Shown: positions 2,954 through 57,693 of the stretch, piece by piece
How the letters are laid out: every line of letters starts with the position of its first letter
Numbering within the stretch: position 1 is the first letter of the stretch
NCBI GenBank assembly: GCA_038087875.1
Contig: CM075988.1
Location: forward strand, 21,392,001-21,456,000
DNA length: 64,000 nt
Reading direction: 5' to 3'
Source: Malacoraja senta
Lineage: Eukaryota
Program-made: the position numbers and the translations under genes
Notes under the pieces: model-generated
Seen by the model: the letters and a program-made list of their open reading frames with translations, nothing else
What the model was told of the DNA's origin: nothing
The model's database searches: none

Positions 2954-3177
2954 TCTTGTCTCTTGTCATAACCGGGGCCACAGTTTAAGAATAAGGAGTA
3001 AGCCATTTAGAACGGAGACGAGGAAACACTTTTTCTCACAGAGAGTTGTGAGTCGGTGGAATTCTCTGCCTCAGAGGGCGGTGGAGGCCGGTTCTCTGGA
3101 TACTTTCAAGAGAGAGTTAGATAGAGCTCTTAAAGATAGCGGAGTCAGGGGATATGGGGAGAAGGCAGGAACGGGGA

Positions 3178-6100
3178 ACGGGAGATCTGCAAAGGCTACT
3201 GGGGAGACTTTAAACTAGAATGGTTGGGGGGAGGGACTCAAATAGAGAATGCTATTAGACAGTGTGTGAGGCAGGAGGCAGAGAAGGAAAGCACTCAGAC
3301 CCAACATGTAGGGGGGAAAGAAGAAAACAATAATAAACAGAGAATAAGAGGTGGTGGGGTTCTTAAATGGGTGAGCAGAGAAACAGAGGGGTGCAAAATG
3401 CGGGCGGAAGCAATAGGTAGCAAGGTGAAAAGTAAAAGTGGCAGGCAGACAAATCCAGGGCAAAAATCAAAAAGAGCCACGTTCCAACATAATTGTATAA
3501 GGGGTAAGAGCGTTGTAAAAACAAGCCTGAAGGCTTTGTGTATCAATGCAAGGAGCATTCGTAATAAGGTCGATGAGTTGAACGTGCAGATAGCAATTAA
3601 TGATTATGATATAGTTGGGATCACGGAGACATGGCTCCAGGGTGACCAAGGCTGGGAGCTGAACATCCAGGGATATTCAATATTCAGGAGGGATAGAGAG
3701 AAAGGAAAAGGAGGTGGGGTAGCGTTGCTGGTTAGAGAGGAGATTAACGCAGTGGAAAGGAAGGGCATTAGCTTGGAGGATGTGGAATCGGTATGGGTAG
3801 AGCTACGAAATACTAAGGGGTAGAAAACGCTGGTGGGTGTTGTGTACATGCCACCTAGCAGTAGTAGTGAAGTTGGGGATGGCATCAAACAGGAAATTAG
3901 AAATGCGTGCAACAAAGGCAAAACAGTTATAATGGGTGACTTCAATCTACATATAGATTGGGTGAATCAAATTGGCAGGGGTGCTGAGGAAGAGGATTTC
4001 TTGGAATGTATGAGGGATAGTTATCTAAACCAACATGTAGAGGAACCAACGAGAGAGCAGGCTATTCTAGACTGGGTATTGAGTAATGAGGAAGGGTTAG
4101 TTAGCAGACTTGTTGTGCGTGCCCCCTTGGGCAAGAGTGACCATAATATGGTTGAGTTCTTCATTAGGATGGAGAGTGACATTGTTAATTCAGAAACAAC
4201 GGTTCTGAACTTAAAGAAAGGTAACTTTGAGGATATGAGACGTGAATTGGCCAAGATTGACTGGCAATTAGTTCTAAAAGGGTTGACGGTGGATATGCAA
4301 TGGAAGGCATTTAAAGACTGCATGGATGAACTACAAAAAATGTTCATCCCAGTTTGGCAAAAGAATAAATCAGGGAAGGTAGTGCATCCGTGGATAACAA
4401 GGGAAATCAGGGATAGTATCAAAGCAAAAGATGTTGCGTACAAATTAGCCAGAAAAAGTAGCATACCAGAGGACTGGGAGAAATTCAGAGACAAGCAGAG
4501 GAGGACAAAGGGCTTAATTAGGAAAGGGAAAATAGATTATGAAAGGAAACTGGCAGGGAACATAAAAACTGACTGCAAAAGTTTTTATAGATATGTGAAG
4601 AGAAAGAGATTAGTTAAAACAAATGTAGGTCCCTTGCAGTCAGAAACAGGTGAATTGATCATGGGGAACAAGGATATGGCGGACCAATTGAATAACTACT
4701 TTGGTTCCGTCTTCACTAAGGAAGACATAAATAATCTGCCGGAAATAGCAGGGGGCCGCGGGTCAAAGGAGATGGAGGAACTGAGTGAAATCCAGGTTAG
4801 TCGGGAAGTGGTGTTGGGTAAATTGAATGGATTAAAGGCCGATAAATCACCAGGGCCAGATAGGCTGCATACCAGAGTACTTAAGGAAGTAGCTCCAGAA
4901 ATAGTGGATGCATTAGTGATAATTTTTCAAAATTCTTTAGATTCTGGAGTAGTTCCTGAGGATTGGAGGGTAGCAAACGTAACCCCACTTTTTAAGAAGG
5001 GAGGGAGAGAGAAAACGGGGAATTACAGACCAGTTAGTCTAACATCGGTAGTGGGGAAACTGCTAGAGTCAGTTATTAGAGATGGGATAGCAGCACATTT
5101 GGAAAGTGGTGAAATCATTGGACAAAGTCAGCATGGATTTACGAAAGGTAAATCGTGTCTGACGAATCTTATAGAATTTTTCGAGGATGTAACTAGTAGA
5201 GTGGATAGGGGAGAACCAGTGGATGTGTTGTATCTGGACTTTCAGAAGGCTTTCGACAAGGTACCACATAAGAGATTAGGATACAAGCTTAAATCACACG
5301 GTATTGGGGGTTCAGTATTGATGTGGATAGAGAACTGGCTGGCAAACAGGAAGCAAAGAGTAGGAGTAAACGGGTCCTTTTCACAATGGCAGGCAGTGAC
5401 TAGTGGGGTACCGCAAGGCTCAGTGCTGGGACCCCAGCTATTTACAATTTATATTAATGAACTGGACGAGGGAATTGAAAGCAACATCTCCAAGTTTGCG
5501 GATGACACTAAGCTGGGGGGCAGTGTTAGCTGTGAGGAGGATGCTAGGAGACTGCAAGGTGACTTGGATAGGCTGGGGGAGTGGGCAAATGTTTGGCAGA
5601 TGCAGTATAATGTGGATAAATGTGAGGTTATCCACTTTGGTGGCAAAAACGGGAAGGCAGACTATTATCTAAATGGTGGCCGATTAGGAAATGGGGAGGT
5701 GCAGCGAGACCTGGGTGTCATGGTACACCAGTCATTGAAAGTAGGCTTGCAGGTGCAGCAGGCAGTGAAGAAAGCGAATGGTATGTTGGCCTTCATAGCA
5801 AGAGGATTTGAGTATAGGAGCAGGGAGGTTCTACTGCAGTTGTACAGGGTCTTGGTGAGACCACACCTGGAGTATTGCGTACAGTTTTGGTCTCCAAATC
5901 TGAGGAAGGACATTATAGCCATAGAGGGAGTGCAGAGAAGGTTCACCAGACTGATTCCTGGGATGTCAGGACTTTCATATGAAGAAAGATTGGATAGACT
6001 TGGCTTATACTCGCTAGAATTTAGGAGATTGAGAGGGGATCTTATAGAAACGTACAAAATTCTTATGGGGTTGGACAGGCTAGATGCAGGAAGATTGTTC

Positions 6101-6433
6101 CCGATGTTGGGGAAGTCCAGGACAAGGGGTCACAGCTTAAGGATAAGGGGGAAATCCTTTAAGACCGAGATGAGGAAAAACTTTTTCACACAGAGAGTGG
6201 TGAATCTCTGGAACTCTCTGCCACAGAGGGTAGTTGACGCCAGTTCATTGGCTATATTTAAGAGGGAGTTTGATGTGGCCCTTGTGGCTAAAGGGATCAG
6301 GGGGTATGGAGAGAAGGCAGGTACGGGATACTGAGTTGGATGATCAGCCATGATCATATTGAATGGCGGTGCAGGCTCGAAGGGCCGAATGGCCTACTCC
6401 TGCACCTATTTTCTATGTATCTATGTATCTATG
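3178..6433 (+). mobile_element. 5'-truncated CR1 LINE (end of ORF1, full ORF2, 3'UTR), nested in another CR1 3' fragment
   Basis: ORF1-like end GRSAKATGETLN* at 3218, ORF2, then a (CTATGTAT)n tail. The host fragment is split as ...GGAACGGGG | TACTGATTGGGG (2971-3177 and 6434-6528). Confidence 0.92.
3224..6334 (+). pseudogene. CR1 ORF2: APE endonuclease + reverse transcriptase, one premature stop (TAG 3821-3823)
   Basis: ORFs 3224-3823 and 3833-6334 are in the same frame. APE motifs NARSI, GITETW, MGDFN, SDH; RT motifs NYRPVSLTS, LDFQKAFDKV, GVPQGSVLGP, FADD. Confidence 0.93.
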
Positions 6434-6950
6434 TACTGATTGGGGATGATCAGCCATGATCACATTGAATGGCGGTGCTGGCTCGAAGGGCCAAATGGCC
6501 TACTCCTGCACCTATTGTCTATTGTCTACTTGTAGTCAGGATTGAACCCGGGTCTCTGGCGCTGTGAGGCAGCAACTCTCCCGCTGTGTCACTGTGTTAG
6601 CAAAATGGTAGCAAACTTGAGTAAACCTATTAAACTTCAGCATATGTGGACGGGGAGTTTTCATCAGTCATTTATGCTGCAAAACTTAGATCTTCAGGGG
6701 AGCCCCAGTATATTCAGTTTCTAACAGAAATTAATTCACTCCAGAACCTCAGAACTGTGGAAATGATCTTCACATTCCAATCTTCCATTCCTTCTACAAA
6801 CAACAAGGCTTTGGCATTGATGCGTGGTATTATTTATAAGTTATTTTCTTATTTAGTTTGGCTAAGTTGCAGCCGCTGAATTTCTGGGTTGCTGTGATGT
6901 GGAATAACTGTGCTGTCAAGGTGGGATAAGCACAATCTGGTGCCGTCTCT

Positions 6951-21396: not shown

Positions 21397-21772
21397 AAGC
21401 AGCCCCGCCCCAAGCAGCAGCCCCGCCCCAAGCAGCAGCCCCGCCCCAAGCAGCAGCCCCGCCCCAAGCAGCAGCCCCGCCCCAAGCAGCAGCCCCGCCC
21501 CAAACAACAGCCCCGCCCCACGCAGCCCCACCCTGCCCCACCCCAAACTGCCCCAAGCCGCAGCCCCGCCCCAAACAGCCCCACCCTGCCCCACCCCAAA
21601 CTGCCCCACCCAGCCCCGACCCAAGCAGCAGCCCCGCCCCAAACAACAGCCCCGCCCCAAGCAGCCCCACCCTGCCCCACCCCAAATTGCCACACCGGCC
21701 CCGCCCAAACTGCCCCGCCCTTTCCCACCCTGCCCCGCCCCAAACAACAACCCCGCCCCAAGCAGCAGCCCC
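21397..21772 (+). repeat. 18-bp GC-rich minisatellite (AAGCAGCAGCCCCGCCCC)n, degenerating towards the 3' end
   Basis: About 5 perfect units, then variant units with a higher-order repeat. Confidence 0.9.
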
Positions 21773-21990
21773 GAGTCGGAGACCCAACCCAGCCCAGAGT
21801 CGGAGATGTTATCGATGTCGCCAAACGGAAAGCGGAGACTCTGATCCCGACGGAGGAGAACGACCAGCAACCAGCGCCCATGTGAGTCCCCATCGCACCA
21901 CCAATTCCAGCCACTACTACCCCTCTGGTCCCCCTTGCTGGCTGCTACCCCACTCCCTCGCGATGCCCCCCACTCCCCCATAGCTCTTCC

Positions 21991-23034: not shown

Positions 23035-23560
23035 GCTCACTCCCCTCCCCCACAACCCCCCCCCACAGCCCTCCCCTCCCCACACCCCCCCACAACCTCC
23101 CCGCAACACCCCCCCCCGCCCCTACAACCCCCCCACCAGCCCCCACAACCCCCCTGGCTCCCACAACCCCCCAACCCCCACAACCCCCCCCGCTGAACCC
23201 CCCACCCCTCCTCCACTCACACACCCCTCCCCTCCACAACCCCTTTGCCCGCACACCCCCCCACCCACACATACCCCCGCCTACACATACCCCCCTTCCA
23301 TCTACACACACCCTCACCCACACCCCCCACACGCCTCCTGCCCACATACACACCTCCCCCCACTCCGCACCCCCTGCCACACCCCCTTCCCCCACACCCC
23401 CTTCCCTATACCCCCTCCTCCCCCCCACACCACCCTCTTCCCCCCCTCCTACACCTCCCTGTCCGCACACACACCTCCTCCCCTCCCACCCCACACCCCC
23501 CCCCCCCGCCACCGTCACACACCCCACTTTCCTCCCCTCCGACCCTCCGACCCTCCCACA
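23035..23560. repeat. C/A-rich low-complexity tract (G-rich on the minus strand)
   Basis: Dense C4-C13 runs separated by A/T. Confidence 0.9.
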
Positions 23561-24364: not shown

Positions 24365-25205
24365 TTCTCTGGATGCTTCCAAGAGAGAGCTAGATAGGGC
24401 TCTTAAAGATAGCGGAGTTAGGGGATATGGGTAGAAGGCAGGAACGGGGTACTGATTTGGGATGATCAGCCATGATCACACTGCATGACGGTGCTGGCTC
24501 GAAGGGCCGAATGTCCTACTCCTGCACCTATTGTCTATTGCCTAAACTGAAGAAAGACACAAAAAGCTGGAGTAACTCAGCGGGACAGGCAGTATCTCTC
24601 TCACCCCTCAGGCATCCCCTCATTAAACTCTCTGAAGCACTGGAAGGTATTAAAATACTTCCAAGCAGTAAGGAACACACCAAAAGCATCGACAAGAAGC
24701 CCAACAGTGAACGGTTAACAACTGTGGGTACTAGACAAAAATGCTGGAGAAACTCAGCGGGTGAGGCGGCATCTAGATGCTGCCTCACCCGCTGAGCTTC
24801 TCCAGCGTTTTTGTCTACCTTTGATTTTTCCAGCATCTGCAGTTCTTTCGTAAACATAACGGTTGACAACTGTGGGTGTTCCACCCTGAGGCACATTGCT
24901 TTCACAAGCATCGTCATTGGTATTTTACTCGTTTATATTTAGTCTGAGGCACAGATGACATTAATTTGTGTGGCTGCAAGAATGCGTATCATGCTCGTGT
25001 GCACCGAGTCACGGGGTTGTACAGCACGGGAACGTGGCCTCTTTTTGTTTTTTAATCAAAAAATAATGTATTTAATTACGACCACGATACATGAACAAAA
25101 CCGTGGTGACGCACCCGACACCATAGTACGAAATCACCAACTTATCCAGGCACTACATTTTCAGGCAACTGTGTTACAATCCTTACTAAGTCACTACTAT
25201 ACAAC

Positions 25206-25259
25206 GGGGTGGGAGATTGCAACCTTCACGTGGTCCGCCCTGCTTCGACAAATGCAATC
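25206..25259 (+). ncRNA. Minimal HDV/CPEB3-like self-cleaving ribozyme (predicted)
   Basis: P1 GGGGUGG/CCGCCCU (G1-U wobble), P2 GAUUGCA/UGCAAUC, P3 ACC/GGU, L3 UUCACGU, J1/4 G, P4 reduced to a UUCG loop, J4/2 CAAA with the catalytic-position C at 25249. Confidence 0.8.
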
Positions 25260-25319
25260 AAACTGGCGTGCACAATCAAATACGATCAAATAGAACAACT
25301 TTTCCTACGCAAGAAGAAT
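25206..25319 (+). mobile_element. Tiny ribozyme-headed retroposon, copy A
   Basis: TSD ACTACTATACAAC (25193-25205, 25320-25332); (AAG)n tail; homologous to 44962-45101. Confidence 0.85.
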
Positions 25320-26262
25320 ACTACTATACAACGGCGTTCCTCTCTAACACCACCCGGGCGCGGACGTCACCCCGGAAAAGGGGCAATCATCTGGCTCGGG
25401 CAAAGCCCTCTTCTGCCTGGCGCAGTGACTCGCGGATGGCCAGCTTGGCCAGGCCTTGGAGCAACCCAACCAGGCCATCTTCGGCCCTGCCCACTCCCTG
25501 GATCCCGTCACCAGTCCTCCGGTCGCTGACAGCAGAGCCGCTCCTCCCCCTACGGCCCCTAGGTGGAGTGGCGGTGCGCCCAGGCACGGGCCCTTTGTCC
25601 CCCCCGGCCCCCCCGTCCCCCCCGCCCCCCCCGGCCCTTTCTGCCCGTTAAACCGATCCCATTTCAACTTTAGAGATAGGATTGCGATACAGTTGCCTGG
25701 GATCGCTCCTGACTGCGGGAGCTGTCTGTACGGAGTTTGTACGTTCTCCCCGTAACCGCGTGTGTTTTCTCCGGTTTATACGGTTTCCGCACTCTAAAGA
25801 CGTGCGGGTTTGTAGTAAATTGTCCCTCGTGTGTGGGATAAAACCAGTGAACGGGTGATTTTTGTCAGCGTGGACTTGCTGGGCAGAAAGGCCTGTTTCC
25901 ACGCTGTATATCTAAATTTTTTTTTAAACAAATCTGCAATTTTCTGAAATGCTGGAGGTTGTGGGGAGACCTAACAGAAGTGTGTAAAGTTATGAGAGTC
26001 ACAGATAGGGTGTTCAGACAGATTATTTATCCCAGGATGGAAAAATCAAATACTAGATGGCATAGGTTTAAGGTGAGAGGGGCACAGTTTAAAAGGTATA
26101 TGCAGGGGCATCTTTATACAAAGGGTGGTGGGTGCCTGCAACATGCTCCCAGGGGTGGTGGGTGAGGCAGATATGATAGTGGTGTTTAAGGGTCTTTTGG
26201 ATAGGCACGTGGATATTCGGGGAATAGAGGAATTATTGATTTTGTGTAGGCAGATGAGTTGG

Positions 26263-38025: not shown

Positions 38026-39123
38026 TCTATCTATCTATATGTAACTAAAACTCTAATCTTGTTACCTTCCGGGTTGGCGGTCATTCTATTTGCGCAAGAA
38101 CGATTCGCGATAGCGCTACGTTTTTCCGCCAGTTCACTCACCGTTCTCCTGCGCTGCGAGTGCGCCAGGTTTCGTTCCGATCGGTTGAATGTCATCAAAG
38201 TTAGCGAGGTTTGAAAAATCTTTTAAAAACCGCGCGTGCGCAGATCGATCTCTTCTCCTGCCTTCCAGCGCTGCGCGGATTAGACTCTTCCCCTGTCATT
38301 CCCCGGGACGGCCCGCCCCTTCCTGCGCCATCGCGTCTTTACTGGAAGCGGAGGGACCCGAAGCAGCCCCGCAATGTCGCCAAACGGAAAGCGGAGAGTC
38401 TGATGCCAGCGGAGGAGAGCATCCAGCGCCCGCTGTGGGTCCCAAACGCAACGCCATCGCAACGCCCCGCAGCTCCACCCCTTTCCCCTCTGCTCCCCCT
38501 CGCTGGCTCCTGTCGCCTCCCCAATGATATCCCCCTCTTCCCCCGAGGATAGAGGGAGAGGAGGGGAGTGGGGAGGGAGGGAGTGACTGAGGGGAGGGGA
38601 AAGGAGAGGGAGGGAGAGGTGAGGGAGGGATTTGGGGAGGGGAGGTGGAGAGGGAAAAGAAGAGGGCGGAGGTGAGGAGGGAGAATGGGGTAGGAGGGGG
38701 TATAGAGGGAGAGGAGGGGGGAGCAGAGGAGGGGGGAGTGGGGGAGGTAGGGAGTGGGGAATAGAGTGAGAGGAGGGCAGTGGGGGAGGTGAGGAGGGAT
38801 AGTGGGGGGTTAGGGGGTGAGGAGTGGGGAGATGGGGATAGAGGGATAGGAGAGGGTAGGGAGGGGAGAGGAGTTATGGAGGGAAGGAGGGAGCGACTGA
38901 GGGGAGGGGAAAGGAGAGGAAGAGAGAGGTGAGGGAGGGATTGGGGGAGGGGAGGAGGAGAGGGGAAAGAAGAGGGAGGGTGGAGGATGGGGAGAGAGTG
39001 CTCGGGATGAGGGGAAATGAGCCGCGCCTGTGCAGTTGGGGGCTATGGGTGAGCGGCGGAATATTGCGTTGGGGGACCAAGCCTCCTGTGTGACAGGGAC
39101 CCAAAGGGTCCCACTTAGTCTAG
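38026..39123 (+). mobile_element. Non-autonomous Helitron, copy 2
   Basis: 5' TC and 3' CTAG; inserted A|T in AACATGTCCCA|TCTACACTAG with no TSD; subterminal hairpin GGGACCC-AAA-GGGTCCC. Confidence 0.88.
38545..39000. repeat. Purine-rich G/A low-complexity tract inside Helitron copy 2
   Basis: Repeated GGGAG/GAGG runs. Confidence 0.9.
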
Positions 39124-44593: not shown

Positions 44594-44961
44594 TCATATT
44601 CAGGGACAGTTTCTTCCCGGCTGTTATCAGGCAACTGAACCATCCTCTCACCAGCTGGAGTGCGGTCCTGACCCTCCCATCTACCTCCAGCAGAGGTGAC
44701 AAAGCATGACTACAATCCAGCCATCCAAAGTGTACAGATACAAGATAGACACAAAAACGCTGGAATAATTCAGCAGGACAGGCAGCATCTCTGGGGAGAA
44801 GGGTCGACCCGAAACGTCACCCATTCCTTCTCCCCAGAGATGCTGCCTGTCTCACTGAGTTACTCCAGCGTTTTGTGTCTATCTTCAGTGTAAACCAGCA
44901 TCTGCAGTTCCTTCCTGCGGACACATGATAACGTGAATAATGTTTGGTGCAAGATAAAGTC

Positions 44962-45101
44962 TTCTTCTTCTTGCGTACGGCGTGCACAGCCTAAAGTTGT
45001 CGGGCAACTTGTTCTATTTGATCTTATTTGATTGTGCACGCCAGGTTGATTGCATTCGTCAAAACAGGGTGGACCACGTGAAGGTTGCGATCTCCCACCC
45101 C
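44962..45101 (-). mobile_element. Tiny ribozyme-headed retroposon, copy B
   Basis: TSD AAGATAAAGTC (44951-44961, 45102-45112); (AAG)n tail; 10-bp 3' stem GGCGTGCACA/TGTGCACGCC. Confidence 0.85.
45048..45101 (-). ncRNA. Minimal HDV/CPEB3-like ribozyme (predicted)
   Basis: Minus strand GGGGUGG-GA-GAUCGCA-ACC-UUCACGU-GGU-CCACCCU-GU-UUUGA-CGAA-UGCAAUC; one C.A mismatch in P2. Confidence 0.78.
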
Positions 45102-45589
45102 AAGATAAAGTCCAGTAAAGTCTGATTAAAGAATAGCTCAAAGGTTCCAATGAGGTAGATGGGAAGTCTGAACCGCACTCTAGCTGATGAGGGAGCCTTG
45201 CAGTTGCCTGATAACAGCTGGGAAGAAACTGTCCCTGAATCTGGAGATGTGCGTTTTCAAACTTCTGTACCTCTTGCCTGATGGGAGTGGGGAGAAGAGG
45301 AGTGAGCGGGGTGAGACTGGTCCGTGATTATGCTGGCAGCCTTGCCGAGGCAGCGTGAAGTGTAGATGGAATCTGAAATTGTTTGCTCCACTGACAAACA
45401 CAAGTGGAATGAAATATCATCTCTCGAATAAATCACGTGGGCAGTGGCCTATTCACAGACTACAACTAAAACATTTAACCGGCGTGTGCTATCATTGCTG
45501 CTTAATGAAAGAGGGTCAATGTTCTGATGCTTGTTGAGACAGTGGATGCCAATTGTATTATATCTTTTATTTTCTGATTGGCTTTAATG

Positions 45590-50334: not shown

Positions 50335-50730
50335 AGGGCCTGTCCCACTTACGCGACCTTTACAGGCGACTGCCGGCATTCGTCATAGGTCGCCGACATT
50401 TTCAACGTTGAAAATTCAGCGGCGACCAGAAAGACGCTACGACTCTTTGGAGACCTCTCACGACCATAGGAGACCTCTCACGACCATAGGAGACCTCTCA
50501 CGACCATAGGAGACCTCTCACGACCATAGGAGACCTCTCACGACCATAGGAGACCTCTCACGACCATAGGAGACCTCTCACGACCATAGGAGACCTCTCA
50601 CGGCCATAGGAGACCTCTCACAACCATAGGAGACCTCTCACGACCAAAGGAGACCTCTCATGACCATAGGAGACCTCCCACGACCATAGGAGACCTCTCA
50701 CGACGATAGGAGACCTCTCACGACCATACA
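50335..50730. mobile_element. Harbinger-like MITE family 3, left half only
   Basis: TAA|AGGGCCTGTCCCACTTACGCG; homologous to 34139-34290; no right TIR seen. Confidence 0.75.
50449..50728 (+). repeat. 20-bp minisatellite (GGAGACCTCTCACGACCATA) x about 14
   Basis: Head-to-tail units without spacers; few substitutions. Confidence 0.95.
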
Positions 50731-56835: not shown

Positions 56836-57693
56836 TCTCTCTCCCCATCCCCCCACTCACAACAAAGGCAGAGTCCCCCTAGTCCTCACCTTTCACCCCA
56901 CCAGCCGTCACATACAACAAGTGATCCTCCGTCAGTTTCGCCACCTCCAACGTGACCCCACCACTCGCCACATCTTCCCATCTCCCCCTATGTCTGCCTT
57001 CCGCAAAGACCGCTCCCTCCGTAACTCCCTTGTCAATTCTTCCCTTCCCTCCCATACCACCCCTCCCCTGGTACTTTCCCTTGCAACCGCAAGAGATGCA
57101 ACACTTGTCCCTTCACTTCCCCCTTCCACTCCATTCAAGGACCCAAGCAGTCGTTCCAGGTGCGACAGAGGTTCACCTGCATCTCCTCCAACCTCATCTA
57201 TTGCATTCGCTGCTCTAGATGCCAGCTGATCTACATCGGTGAGACCAAGCGGAGGCTTGGCGATCGTTTCGCCGAACACCTCCGGTCGGTCCGCAATAAC
57301 CAACCTGAACTCCCGGTGGCTCAGCACTTCAACTCCCCCTCCCATTCCGTATCTGACCTCTCTGTCCTGGGTCTCCTCCATGGCCACAGCGAGCAACACC
57401 GTAAATTGGAGGAAATGCACCTCATATTCCGCTTGGGCAGTCTACATCCTGGTGGCCTGAACGTTGAATTCTCCAATTCTGCTAGCCCTGGCTGTCCCCT
57501 CCCCTTCATCAGCCCTCTGGTTGTCTCCTCCCCTCCCCAGCCCTCGGGCTCCTCCTCCGCCTTTTCCTTTTTTCCTCTCTTCTCCCCACCCCCTATCAGT
57601 CTGAAGAAGGGTTTCGGCCCGAAACGTTACCTATTTCCTTCGCTCCATAGATGCTGCTGCACCCGCTGAGTTTCTCCAGCATTTTTGTGTACC
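56836..57693 (+). mobile_element. Penelope-like element 3' portion (linker + GIY-YIG + terminal repeat)
   Basis: RVPLVLTFHP..ILRQFRHLQRDPTTRHIF..RSLRNSLV..CNTCP..RQRFTCISSNLIYCIRC..YIGETKRRLGDRFAEH; hammerhead-like core at 57601-57630. Confidence 0.9.

What the first reader, a model, noticed from the sequence alone, without database searches (positions are those of the whole stretch)
25206..25319. Tiny SINE-like retroposon whose head is a minimal HDV/CPEB3-like ribozyme
Seen: a 114-bp element with a 13-bp TSD and (AAG)n tail but no tRNA/5S/7SL head. Its first 54 nt form the nested double pseudoknot: P1 25206-12/25235-41 with a G1-U wobble, P2 25215-21/25253-59 (7 perfect pairs), P3 ACC/GGU, L3 UUCACGU, single C-G P1.1, P4 shrunk to a UUCG loop, and J4/2 CAAA. 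The element starts at G1, the HDV cleavage position, in both copies. Established: L3 UUCACGU, P1 ending CCCU-GU and J4/2 CGAA match the mammalian CPEB3 ribozyme as I recall it, and HDV-like ribozymes head R2, RTE and Ingi/L1Tc elements. Inference: a promoterless element that cuts itself out of host transcripts and borrows a LINE (possibly Ingi/Vingi-type) RT; it could be a mobile relative of CPEB3-type ribozymes. I cannot confirm novelty without a database.
Basis: partly seen in the sequence, partly recalled or inferred. Interest (0 to 1): 0.88.

Follow-up and report, generated by a model that had tools for sequence, protein, structure and literature searches.

The report
Ribozyme-headed mini retroposon, CPEB3-like
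A roughly 140-letter piece of jumping DNA, present in thousands of copies, begins with a 54-letter fold built like the self-cutting CPEB3/hepatitis-delta ribozyme; the fold most likely trims the element out of host transcripts, and it gives the mammalian CPEB3 ribozyme clear relatives in mobile DNA.

Summary
Window 25206-25319 is one internally deleted copy of a ~140-bp non-autonomous retroposon with an (AAG)n tail and 8-15-bp target duplications. Its 21-nt core occurs exactly 2,739 times in this 1.94-Gb genome. Copies begin at G1 of a 54-nt fold with the HDV-like nested double pseudoknot. The fold matches published CPEB3 hallmarks: G1.U36 wobble, L3 UUCACGU at 20-26, a one-G-C P1.1, and a 4-nt J4/2 that reads CGAA in most copies. 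P4 is replaced by a 5-nt linker.

Rfam's models do not detect this head. Rfam's CPEB3 model does hit other repeat families in the same genome, up to 64 bits against a 35-bit cut-off. These include two 3.1-kb APE+RT LINE families with (AAG)n-type tails and a second P4-less SINE-like family. Across these families P1, P2 and P3 change by compensating substitutions while L3, J1/4 and J4/2 stay fixed.

Best reading (0.8): a promoterless element freed from read-through transcripts by self-cleavage and copied by an RTE-like LINE, not an Ingi/Vingi one. Cleavage is not shown, and poly(A) RNA reads show no pile-up of starts at G1. It is a new variant of a known kind, notable as a CPEB3-type ribozyme on mobile elements.

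The parts
25193..25205 (+). Left target-site duplication, ACTACTATACAAC
   Evidence: Repeated at 25320-25332. The TSD script found a 13/14 match abutting G1.
25206..25259 (+). 54-nt CPEB3-type HDV-like ribozyme head. P1 25206-12/25235-41; J1/2 25213-14; P2 25215-21/25253-59; P3 25222-24/25232-34; L3 25225-31; P1.1 C25227-G25242; linker 25244-48; J4/2 25249-52, with the presumed catalytic C at 25249.
   Evidence: fold; covariation; CPEB3 hallmarks in print.
25260..25309 (+). Body: remnant of the 3' hairpin module. It lacks 24 bp of the canonical sequence.
   Evidence: Comparison with 32 other copies. The canonical 85-nt body folds at -23.9 kcal/mol, z -3.86.
25310..25319 (+). 3' terminus CAAGAAGAAT: a short (AAG)n tail preceded by the ACG motif at 25307-25309.
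   Evidence: LINE A and LINE B end in ACGAAAAGAAGAAG and ACGAAAGAAAAAG.
25320..25332 (+). Right target-site duplication
44961..45101 (-). Second, full-length copy of the same family. G1 = 45101, head 45048-45101, tail ends at 44961. It carries one P2 mismatch (U13>C) and a G32>A change that turns the U5.G32 wobble into U-A.
45102..45111 (-). TSD of the second copy (ACTTTATCTT), upstream side
44951..44960 (-). TSD of the second copy (ACTTTATCTT), downstream side

Best explanation
The element is a promoterless, non-autonomous non-LTR retroposon. Its first 54 nt are a minimal, P4-less self-cleaving ribozyme of the HDV-like class and CPEB3 type.

Proposed cycle:
1. Copies lying in the sense orientation inside longer host transcripts are co-transcribed. 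Transcription across copies is shown; its sense is inferred.
2. The head folds into the nested double pseudoknot and cuts the RNA just 5' of G1, with C44 (window 25249) as the general acid. This is inferred from the fold and from homology.
3. The freed RNA carries a 3' hairpin and an ACG-(AAG)n end. The reverse transcriptase of an RTE-like APE+RT LINE uses this end in trans. That LINE itself starts with a CPEB3-type ribozyme and ends in (AAG)n. LINEs of this build are shown; the trans-use is inferred.
4. Target-primed reverse transcription copies the RNA to its very end. This gives full-length inserts that begin at G1 and are flanked by 8-15-bp duplications (shown).

The window copy is a dead one, because its 3' hairpin is deleted.
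For: 1. Family and ends.
- 1018 first-look candidates; the 40 scored were 94-100% identical.
- The 21-nt core occurs exactly 1401+1338 = 2739 times; the reversed control gives 0.
- All 33 copies start at the G-run, with unrelated upstream DNA. They represent 32 insertions, since L019 and L022 are the same locus.
- Of 20 further copies taken in order along contig 1, 17 start with G1, 2 have another base at position 1, and 1 lacks 5 nt (read by eye).
- 41 of 51 copies have a TSD of at least 8 nt next to G1 and after the tail. Mismatched control pairs gave 0 of 246.

2. Fold.
- The single-sequence MFE is exactly P1+P3.
- RNAalifold on 21 heads picks P2 on its own, with 6 of 7 pairs compensated.
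- The topology descriptor hits only the two copies in the window. It hits 36 times in 288 Mb of shuffles. In 577 kb of fetched loci, all 42 hits are members of these ribozyme families.

3. Covariation on the unedited MAFFT alignment A1 (7 SINE heads plus 14 heads of five sister families).
- 93.5% of cells are paired, against 71.0% in shuffles (0 of 500 reach it) and 35-50% when the partners are slid.
- 11 of 18 pairs change on both sides.
- The covariation score is 0.631 against 0.210 (0 of 500).
- The P1.1 C-G pair is invariant, 21 of 21.
- Between the SINE and the others all of P3 changes (ACC/GGU vs GCG/CGC), as do 5 of 7 P2 pairs and 3 P1 pairs. L3, J1/4 GU and J4/2 C-N-A-A stay fixed.

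4. CPEB3 hallmarks in print.
- G1.U36, U20.G25, C22 in a P1.1 of one G-C plus one U-U, a 4-nt J4/2 and a catalytic C (PMC4836649, passages).
- L3 TTCACGT starting 19 nt from the cut (PMC10919898, primer table).
- All of these are matched position for position.

5. Sister elements.
- RF00622 gave 60 matches, 39 over the 35-bit cut-off, best 64.2 bits. I looked at 59 of the 60.
- LINE A (L069+L070) runs from G1 of the ribozyme through APE and RT (Pfam) to ...ACGAAAAGAAGAAG. It is 3108 bp long and flanked by the TSD AATCACAACCT.
- LINE B is 66-72% identical to LINE A and ends in ...ACGAAAGAAAAAG.
- Family D is a second SINE-like family, about 175 bp, with TSDs, an (AAG)n tail and a P4-less head. 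Its linker GUUUCCACCAA resembles the SINE's GUUUCGAC(G/A)AA.

6. Constraint.
- In the 20 position-ordered copies, P2 (both strands) differs from the consensus at 1 of 280 sites. Non-CpG body sites differ at 81 of 1360 (Fisher p = 5.9e-6).
- Frequent variants in the head fall at position 8 (J1/2), position 45 (the N of J4/2), the linker, and G32>A, which keeps the pair with U5.

7. No Pol III head.
- Rfam gives nothing and ARAGORN gives nothing.
- The best A and B boxes match 6 of 9 positions each, which 86% and 66% of shuffles also reach.

8. P4-less HDV-like ribozymes are an accepted class (PMC10879173, introduction passage).
Against: - No cleavage assay exists.
- In poly(A) RNA raw reads (run X24) no position qualified as a place where many molecules begin or end. 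At least 104+99 reads run across the G1 boundary into unrelated flanks. So many transcribed copies are uncut in steady-state poly(A) RNA. Strand and copy of origin could not be separated, and cleaved RNAs may be lost from such libraries.
- Rfam's HDV and CPEB3 models do not detect the SINE head, even at E<=10 on 321 nt or E<=1.
- The nested fold of the head is no more stable than shuffles: z +0.44 and +0.53, with 130 and 139 of 200 shuffles folding at least as well.
- P4 is missing and P1.1 has a single G-C pair, so activity could be low.
- The covariation comes from about six families, so the number of independent events is small. The family heads were found with a CPEB3 model, which favours CPEB3-like sequences.
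- No LINE was found that shares the SINE's 3' hairpin. Only about 10 terminal nt plus the repeat are shared, so the partner is not pinned down.
- A uniform 5' end alone would also fit a transcription start.
Confidence: 0.8

Rival explanations
1. The head keeps the double-pseudoknot fold for a non-catalytic job. Examples would be a binding or positioning site for the LINE protein at the RNA 5' end, or protection of the RNA end. On this reading the P4-less version no longer cleaves efficiently, and the 5' end is set in some other way.
For: There is no pile-up of starts at G1, and many reads cross the site, in poly(A) RNA. P4 is absent and P1.1 is minimal. A review passage says the R2 protein binds a pseudoknot within its HDV-like ribozyme (PMC6765202). 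Conservation of P2 shows constraint, not catalysis.
Against: Every residue tied to catalysis in CPEB3 is kept: the G1.U wobble, U20, G25, C22-G37 and C44 followed by N-A-A. A mere binding fold would not need these. Copies start exactly at the nucleotide 3' of the predicted scissile bond in the SINE, in family D and in LINE A. P4-less HDV-like ribozymes are a recognised class.
Confidence: 0.12
2. It is an ordinary Pol III-transcribed SINE whose head derives from an unrecognised small RNA. The uniform 5' end is then a transcription start, and the ribozyme-like fold is incidental.
For: Uniform 5' ends and short length are typical of Pol III SINEs. The canonical sequence has no run of four T.
Against: There is no match to any Rfam family and no tRNA. 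The A/B-box likeness is at chance level. The same head type, with the same G1 start, leads 3.1-kb protein-coding LINEs, which do not fit Pol III units. The fold is supported by covariation and has a chance rate of about 1e-7 per base.
Confidence: 0.05
3. It is a chance resemblance: a retroposon 5' end that happens to be drawable as a double pseudoknot.
For: The nested-fold energy is not exceptional, and Rfam gives no hit for this head.
Against: The descriptor's chance rate is 36 hits in 288 Mb. L3, J1/4 and J4/2 are identical to CPEB3 at the same positions. There are compensatory changes across six families.
Confidence: 0.01

Closest known systems
Mammalian CPEB3 ribozyme (Rfam RF00622)
   Same: It has the same architecture and numbering through position 38: P1 1-7/30-36 with G1.U36, 2-nt J1/2, 7-bp P2, 3-bp P3, L3 UUCACGU at 20-26, and P1.1 formed by C22-G37 plus U21.U38. 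J4/2 is CGAA in most copies. Heads of sister LINEs in this genome pass Rfam's cut-off (36-64 bits). They share long identical runs with the consensus printed, for example AGAAGCGUUCACGUCGCG and UGCGAAUUCU.
   Different: The SINE head has no P4, and its P1 (3 of 7 pairs), P2 and P3 sequences differ. It does not reach any Rfam threshold. It is a dispersed repeat at the 5' end of a mobile element, not a single intronic locus. [quoted passage not shown] I did not determine the host taxon of this genome.
HDV-like ribozymes at the 5' ends of non-LTR retrotransposons (R2, R4, RTE, LOA/Baggins, L1Tc/Ingi)
   Same: The ribozyme forms the first nucleotides of the element, which fits release from a co-transcript. 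RTE is one of six LINE clades reported to carry one (PMC5786205 passage; PMC6765202 passage). LINE A and LINE B here have the RTE-like build: about 3.1 kb, one APE+RT ORF, a short 3' UTR and a trimer-repeat tail. The match to RTE is my recall of that clade's description; no phylogeny was done.
   Different: The core here is of the CPEB3 sequence type. The original papers (Webb 2009, Ruminski 2011, Webb and Luptak 2011) are not held in the library. I therefore could not check whether any of their RTE ribozymes resemble CPEB3 this closely.
Non-autonomous elements that keep the parent LINE's ribozyme: R2 SIDEs, NARTc/SIDER with the Pr77-L1TcRz head, 'bipartite non-autonomous LINEs' of RTE
   Same: They are short, ORF-less, carry a ribozyme head and a LINE-type 3' end, and are mobilised in trans (abstracts of PMC3414825 and PMC3383444; PMC5786205 passage).
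   Different: This head is not a copy of a found LINE head. All three helices differ from LINE A and LINE B, and P4 is gone. Only about 10 terminal nt plus (AAG)n are shared with the LINE 3' ends. Insertion is not site-specific, unlike R2. No promoter function is known, unlike Pr77.
Minimal P4-less HDV-like ribozymes (drz-Mtgn, theta ribozymes of gut phages)
   Same: They lack P4 and are of similar size (PMC10879173, introduction passage).
   Different: Those come from metagenomes and phages and sit next to tRNAs. This one is in a eukaryotic genome and heads a retroposon, and its core sequence is of CPEB3 type.

Membership tests
HDV-like self-cleaving ribozymes (structural class) | Nested double pseudoknot in the order P1, P2, P3-L3-P3', P1', P1.1, (P4), J4/2, P2' | tested here: met
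   Descriptor hit. The MFE gives P1+P3. RNAalifold gives P2. 93.5% of cells are paired on A1 with 0/500 shuffles reaching that value.
HDV-like self-cleaving ribozymes (structural class) | Cleavage-site G1 in a G.U wobble closing P1; a C in L3 paired to a G after P1 (P1.1); a catalytic C opening J4/2 | tested here: met
   G1.U36 is present in the 12 of 16 gap-free rows that keep an intact 5' end. C22-G37 is present in 21/21 rows. C44 is nearly invariant.
HDV-like self-cleaving ribozymes (structural class) | Mg2+-dependent self-cleavage 5' of G1, giving a 5'-OH and a 2',3'-cyclic phosphate | not testable with these tools
   The only proxy is poly(A) RNA reads, which show no pile-up of starts at G1. 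This is inconclusive.
HDV-like self-cleaving ribozymes (structural class) | P4 helix | tested here: not met
   A 5-nt linker UUCGA stands in place of P4. P4 is not required for the class, since minimal drz lack it (PMC10879173 passage).
Rfam RF00622 CPEB3_ribozyme | Covariance-model score at or above the gathering score of 35 bits | tested here: not met
   The SINE head gives no match at E<=10 or E<=1 (L010). Sister heads do pass: A 61-64, B 60, C 43-51, E 46-48 and D 36-37 bits.
Rfam RF00622 CPEB3_ribozyme | Single conserved locus in an intron of the mammalian CPEB3 gene | tested here: not met
   Thousands of dispersed copies with TSDs. The host taxon and the CPEB3 locus were not examined.
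Classical SINE (Pol III head from tRNA, 5S, 7SL or snRNA) | Head homologous to a small RNA, with an internal A/B-box promoter | tested here: not met
   No Rfam match. ARAGORN finds no tRNA. The best boxes match 6/9 each, at chance level.
Bipartite non-autonomous LINE / SIDE | The 5' end and 3' end are both copies of the parent LINE's ends | tested here: inconclusive
   The head is of the same class and the terminal ACG-(AAG)n motif matches LINE A and LINE B. No LINE with the same helices or the same 3' hairpin was found. The genome could be sampled only in small part.
RTE clade (for the partner LINEs) | RT phylogeny within RTE; about 3.2 kb, a single APE+RT ORF, a very short 3' UTR ending in short repeats | tested here: inconclusive
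   The architecture is met. No phylogeny was done. The protein-atlas search was uninformative.

The most novel reading that the evidence does not exclude
These LINE and SINE heads are the missing relatives of the mammalian CPEB3 ribozyme. On this reading CPEB3-type ribozymes are primarily the 5' processing device of an RTE-like retroposon lineage. The conserved ribozyme in the mammalian CPEB3 intron would then be an exapted head of one such insertion. The 54-nt SINE head would also be the smallest natural eukaryotic HDV-like ribozyme, and a natural experiment showing that the CPEB3 core works without P4.
Probability: 0.4. Interest if true: 0.85.

Novelty: new variant of a known kind. Interest (0 to 1): 0.72.

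Why it matters
HDV-like ribozymes at LINE 5' ends, and non-autonomous elements that keep them, are known. What stands out here is the type of ribozyme.

- **Sequence-level likeness to CPEB3.** The core matches the mammalian CPEB3 ribozyme at the sequence level, not only in fold. It heads several LINE and SINE-like families with thousands of copies.
[quoted passage not shown] If this host is not a mammal, these elements supply outgroups and a concrete, testable origin: exaptation of a retroposon head. I did not determine the host taxon. If the host is a mammal, they would be HDV-like ribozymes outside the CPEB3 gene, which the same paper says were not found.
- **Natural mutagenesis.** The families form a natural mutagenesis series: P4 is present, short or absent; J4/2 is C-G/A/U/C-A-A; and P1-P3 are swapped by compensation. 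This is useful for ribozyme engineering.
- **Genome annotation.** It marks a class of 'headless SINEs' whose 5' ends are made by RNA catalysis rather than by a promoter.

Tried and rejected
I dropped that step.

2. Looking for the partner LINE by other routes:
- blastn of the SINE against all DNA held (window plus 30 loci), against 30 RT loci, and against 50 kb next to the window found only SINE copies.
- The Pfam RVT_1 search of the genome (159,856 candidates, 150 scored) returned a single unrelated LINE family.
- As a result, no LINE sharing the SINE's 3' hairpin was found.

3. A lead not followed: in two contig runs, something else shares only the last 45-50 nt of the SINE (loose ends at 1504 and 1509).

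4. No RNA holder was listed for the stretch by the look-up of sequencing runs.

5. The window's own CR1-like LINE (3140-6440) ends in (TCTATGTA)n and is not the partner. The 3-mismatch hit at 4676 lies inside that LINE's ORF and is not a copy.

6. The protein atlas gave only 'reverse transcriptase' for LINE A's RT, with no clade.

7. Earlier findings of this scan hold nothing on this genome or sequence. The 8 'HDV ribozyme' notes shown concern phages, an archaeal virus and a DNA transposon, and were not used.

8. Literature:
- Searches found no paper describing CPEB3-type ribozymes on LINE or SINE heads.
- Webb 2009, Ruminski 2011 and Webb and Luptak 2011 are not held.
- Repbase and Dfam could not be consulted, so prior description cannot be excluded.

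9. Host taxon: not determined.
Full report
**What is at the coordinates.**
- A 13-bp direct repeat, ACTACTATACAAC, brackets a 114-bp insert. The insert starts GGGGTGGGAG and ends CAAGAAGAAT. Because GG follows both repeat copies, the start of this one copy is ambiguous by up to 2 nt.
- Every stated pairing is present: P1 1-7/30-36 (G1.U36 plus one U.G), P2 10-16/48-54 (7 Watson-Crick pairs), P3 17-19/27-29, L3 UUCACGU at 20-26, C22-G37, and C44 followed by AAA. Window position = 25205 + element position.
- Rfam finds nothing in the whole window at gathering level. Around the element at E<=10 it finds nothing except a chance CRISPR-repeat match. ARAGORN finds no tRNA.

**It is a real, abundant, young retroposon family.**
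- The window lies in a 1.94-Gb, 6182-contig eukaryotic assembly. The 114-bp query drew 1018 first-look candidates, and the 40 scored were 94-100% identical.
- The 21-nt core (positions 17-37) occurs exactly 1401+1338 = 2739 times. The reversed control occurs 0 times.
- The canonical copy is 139-146 bp: the 54-nt head, an 85-nt body and an (AAG)n tail. The body folds into a long hairpin of -23.9 kcal/mol, z -3.86, matched by 0 of 200 shuffles.
- The window copy lacks 24 bp of that hairpin. A second, full-length copy lies at 45101-44961 on the minus strand.
- All 33 copies begin at the same G-run with unrelated upstream DNA. These are the 29 best loci other than the window's own, a second copy in L021, the two window copies, and one older copy found in 50 kb next to the window. 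L019 and L022 are one locus seen twice.
- Twenty more copies were taken simply in order along contig 1. They are unbiased except that their core is intact. Of these, 17 begin with G1, 2 have another base at position 1, and 1 is truncated by 5 nt (read by eye).
- A script found a duplication of at least 8 nt abutting G1 and following the tail in 41 of 51 copies. Mismatched control pairs gave 0 of 246. Two rows were dropped: the duplicate locus and a copy cut off by its locus end.

**Is the fold more than chance?**
- Energy gives no support. The pseudoknot-free MFE of the head is exactly P1+P3 (-12.4 kcal/mol), but shuffles fold as well (z +0.44 and +0.53).
- Topology does give support. I wrote a descriptor asking for: a G1.U-closed 7-bp P1 and a 7-bp P2 (one mismatch allowed in each), a 3-bp P3, a 7-nt L3 whose third base is C paired to the G after P1, and C-N-A-A before P2'. 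No other L3 sequence was required.
- The descriptor hits only the two SINE copies in the window. It hits 36 times in 288 Mb of block-shuffled window, about 1.2e-7 per base. In 577 kb of fetched loci it hits 42 sites, all of them members of the ribozyme families below.

**The decisive find: sister families.** I searched the whole genome with Rfam's CPEB3_ribozyme model (RF00622). It gave 60 matches, 39 above the 35-bit gathering score, with a best score of 64.2 bits. Only 59 of roughly 100,000 loose candidates were scored. I read 59 of the 60 matches; the one omitted is a 30-nt partial hit beside another match. They fall into several repeat families, each starting at G1 with unrelated upstream DNA.
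- **Family A** is the 5' end of a LINE. In L069+L070 the element runs 3108 bp from G1. It passes through an APE domain (PF03372, PF14529) and an RT domain (PF00078, E 5e-32) in one frame broken by two frameshifts. It ends ...ACGAAAAGAAGAAG and is flanked by the 11-bp duplication AATCACAACCT.
- **Family B** is a related LINE, 66-72% identical in DNA. The copy read is 5'-truncated, has the TSD CATCTGTAA, and ends ...ACGAAAGAAAAAG.
- **Families C and E** have shorter P4 hairpins.
- **Family D** is a second SINE-like family of about 175 bp, with TSDs and an (AAG)n tail. Its 52-53-nt head lacks P4. Its P1'-to-P2' linker is GUUUCCACCAA, beside the SINE's GUUUCGAC(G/A)AA. Family D just passes Rfam's threshold (36.3-36.5 bits).
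- The 15-mer spanning P3-L3-P3', identical to the Rfam consensus printed, occurs 479+525 = 1004 times in the genome, against 0 for the control.

**Covariation.** I aligned 21 heads with MAFFT and did not edit the alignment (A1). The rows are 7 SINE, 3 D, 2 A, 3 B, 3 C and 3 E. They include 5'-damaged rows and two rows that MAFFT put one column out of register.
- On the double-pseudoknot structure, 93.5% of 371 cells are standard pairs. Shuffles give 71.0% (0 of 500 reach the observed value), and sliding the partners gives 35-50%.
- 11 of 18 pairs change on both sides. The covariation score is 0.631 against 0.210 (0 of 500). The P1.1 pair is C-G in 21 of 21 rows.
- RNAalifold, which cannot draw pseudoknots, picks P2 by itself, with 6 of 7 pairs compensated.
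- Between the SINE and the rest, P3 is wholly exchanged (ACC/GGU for GCG/CGC), as are five P2 pairs and three P1 pairs. L3, the GU after P1 and C-N-A-A are kept.
- Caveats: the rows form about six related groups, so independent events are few. The sister heads were also found with a CPEB3 model.

**Constraint within the SINE family.** In the 20 position-ordered copies, the two P2 strands differ from the consensus at 1 of 280 sites. Non-CpG body sites differ at 81 of 1360 (Fisher p = 5.9e-6).
- Much of the variation therefore lies between source lineages, and the head helices were held fixed in them.
- J4/2 reads CGAA in 11 copies (plus one CGGA), CAAA in 4, CUAA in 3 and CCAA in 1.
- Other frequent head variants lie in J1/2, in the linker, and at G32>A, which turns the U5.G32 wobble into U-A.

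**Comparison with CPEB3 as printed.**
- PMC4836649 (passages read) describes for the CPEB3 ribozyme: a G1.U36 wobble; a U20.G25 wobble that holds the catalytic Mg2+; C22 in a P1.1 of one G-C and one U-U pair; and a 4-nt J4/2 with the catalytic C57 followed by G58, A59, A60.
[quoted passage not shown] That puts L3 TTCACGT at 20-26.
- The SINE head matches all of these at the same positions, and U21.U38 is also present in most copies. The window copy has C38.
- Against the Rfam consensus shown, LINE A is identical at 34 of the first 41 positions and 11 of the last 13 (my count by eye).
- P4-less HDV-like ribozymes are an accepted class (PMC10879173, introduction). About 50 nt is quoted as enough for the minimal double pseudoknot (PMC4870747).

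**Expression.** The element's words occur in runs carrying seven coded organism labels. I laid four runs.
- In poly(A) RNA raw reads (X24), depth rises from tens in the flanks to 90-270 per strand class inside the element. So copies are transcribed, in both read orientations.
- No position met the tool's criterion for a place where many molecules begin or end. 104+99 reads run on across the G1 boundary into unrelated sequence.
- This speaks against efficient cleavage of most transcribed copies in steady-state poly(A) RNA. It cannot exclude cleavage of intact sense copies, because strand and copy of origin are not resolved at the boundary, and cut RNAs lose either the cap or the tail.
- In the three contig runs, the loose ends at the 5' boundary have low agreement (0.36-0.58). 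The same uniform 5' end with unrelated flanks is therefore seen under other organism labels.

**Mechanism and rivals.** The best reading (0.8) has four steps.
1. Read-through transcription of sense copies.
2. Self-cleavage 5' of G1 by a P4-less CPEB3-type ribozyme.
3. Use of the 3' hairpin and ACG-(AAG)n end by the RT of an RTE-like LINE.
4. Full-length target-primed reverse transcription.

What is shown:
- the family and its 5' ends
- the TSDs and the (AAG)n tail
- the fold and its covariation
- LINEs with the same head type and tail
- transcription of copies

What is inferred:
- catalysis
- which LINE acts as partner
- how the RNA 3' end is made

The rivals:
- A structural but non-catalytic 5' module (0.12) would not explain why every catalytic residue is kept.
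- A Pol III SINE (0.05) is contradicted by the lack of any small-RNA likeness or promoter boxes, and by 3.1-kb coding LINEs that share the head.
- Chance (0.01) is excluded.

The LINEs have the RTE build, which is my recall of that clade's description; no phylogeny was done.

**Novelty.**
- The kind is known. [quoted passage not shown] RTE, Ingi and R2 spawn bipartite non-autonomous derivatives (PMC5786205). Reviews note that some SINEs use HDV-like or hammerhead ribozymes (PMC6765202).
- The variant looks new. It is a CPEB3-type core, P4-less, heading a 140-bp element. CPEB3-model-positive heads also sit on several LINE and SINE-like families.
- My library searches found no description of such elements. 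The three founding papers on HDV-like ribozymes in retrotransposons are not held, and repeat databases could not be checked. I did not determine the host taxon.

Noticed in passing
G000 loci L087-L122 (e.g. L098:63-240, L111, L110, L100): A second ribozyme-headed SINE-like family ('D', about 175 bp). It has a 52-53-nt P4-less CPEB3-type head, a body with a GTTCAGC...GCTGAAC hairpin, a CGATAAGAAGAAG end and TSDs. The base just before G1 is T in most copies and belongs to the target duplication. This may reflect a target preference or a -1 U preference; it is unexplained.
   Followed up: partly
L069:1512 to L070:~1535 (G000:C1:86602702-86605809) and L108+L126: Two related 3.1-kb APE+RT LINE families (A, B). 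Their first nucleotides form a CPEB3-model-positive ribozyme (60-64 bits) and they end in (AAG)n-type repeats. The copies read carry frameshifts (A) or a 5' truncation (B).
   Followed up: partly
window 3140-6440 (+): A CR1-like LINE with APE and RT domains and an 836-aa open frame (3824-6334). It ends in (TCTATGTA)3 at 6412-6435, followed by a partial second 3' end and a (CTATTGT)3 repeat.
   Followed up: partly
window 57025-57669 (+): An open frame with a weak GIY-YIG match (E 2e-4, just under Pfam's cut-off). It may be a Penelope-like element fragment.
   Followed up: no
window 21398-21773, 23043-23525, 38554-38980: Long C-rich or G-rich low-complexity tandem arrays with periods of 10-139.
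   Followed up: no
window 50449-50728: A tandem array of a 20-mer (GGAGACCTCTCACGACCATA), 14 copies, 95% matches.
   Followed up: no
L068:1670-1796: A ~127-nt near-perfect palindrome beside a LINE-A head. It matches several miRNA-precursor models on both strands, all below their gathering scores. It is probably a MITE-like hairpin.
   Followed up: no
L010:1504-1509 (runs X1 and X2): In two contig runs, a few contigs share only the last 45-50 nt of the SINE and then continue into a different, mutually consistent sequence (agreement 0.82-0.94). This could be the true LINE partner or another SINE family with the same 3' module.
   Followed up: no
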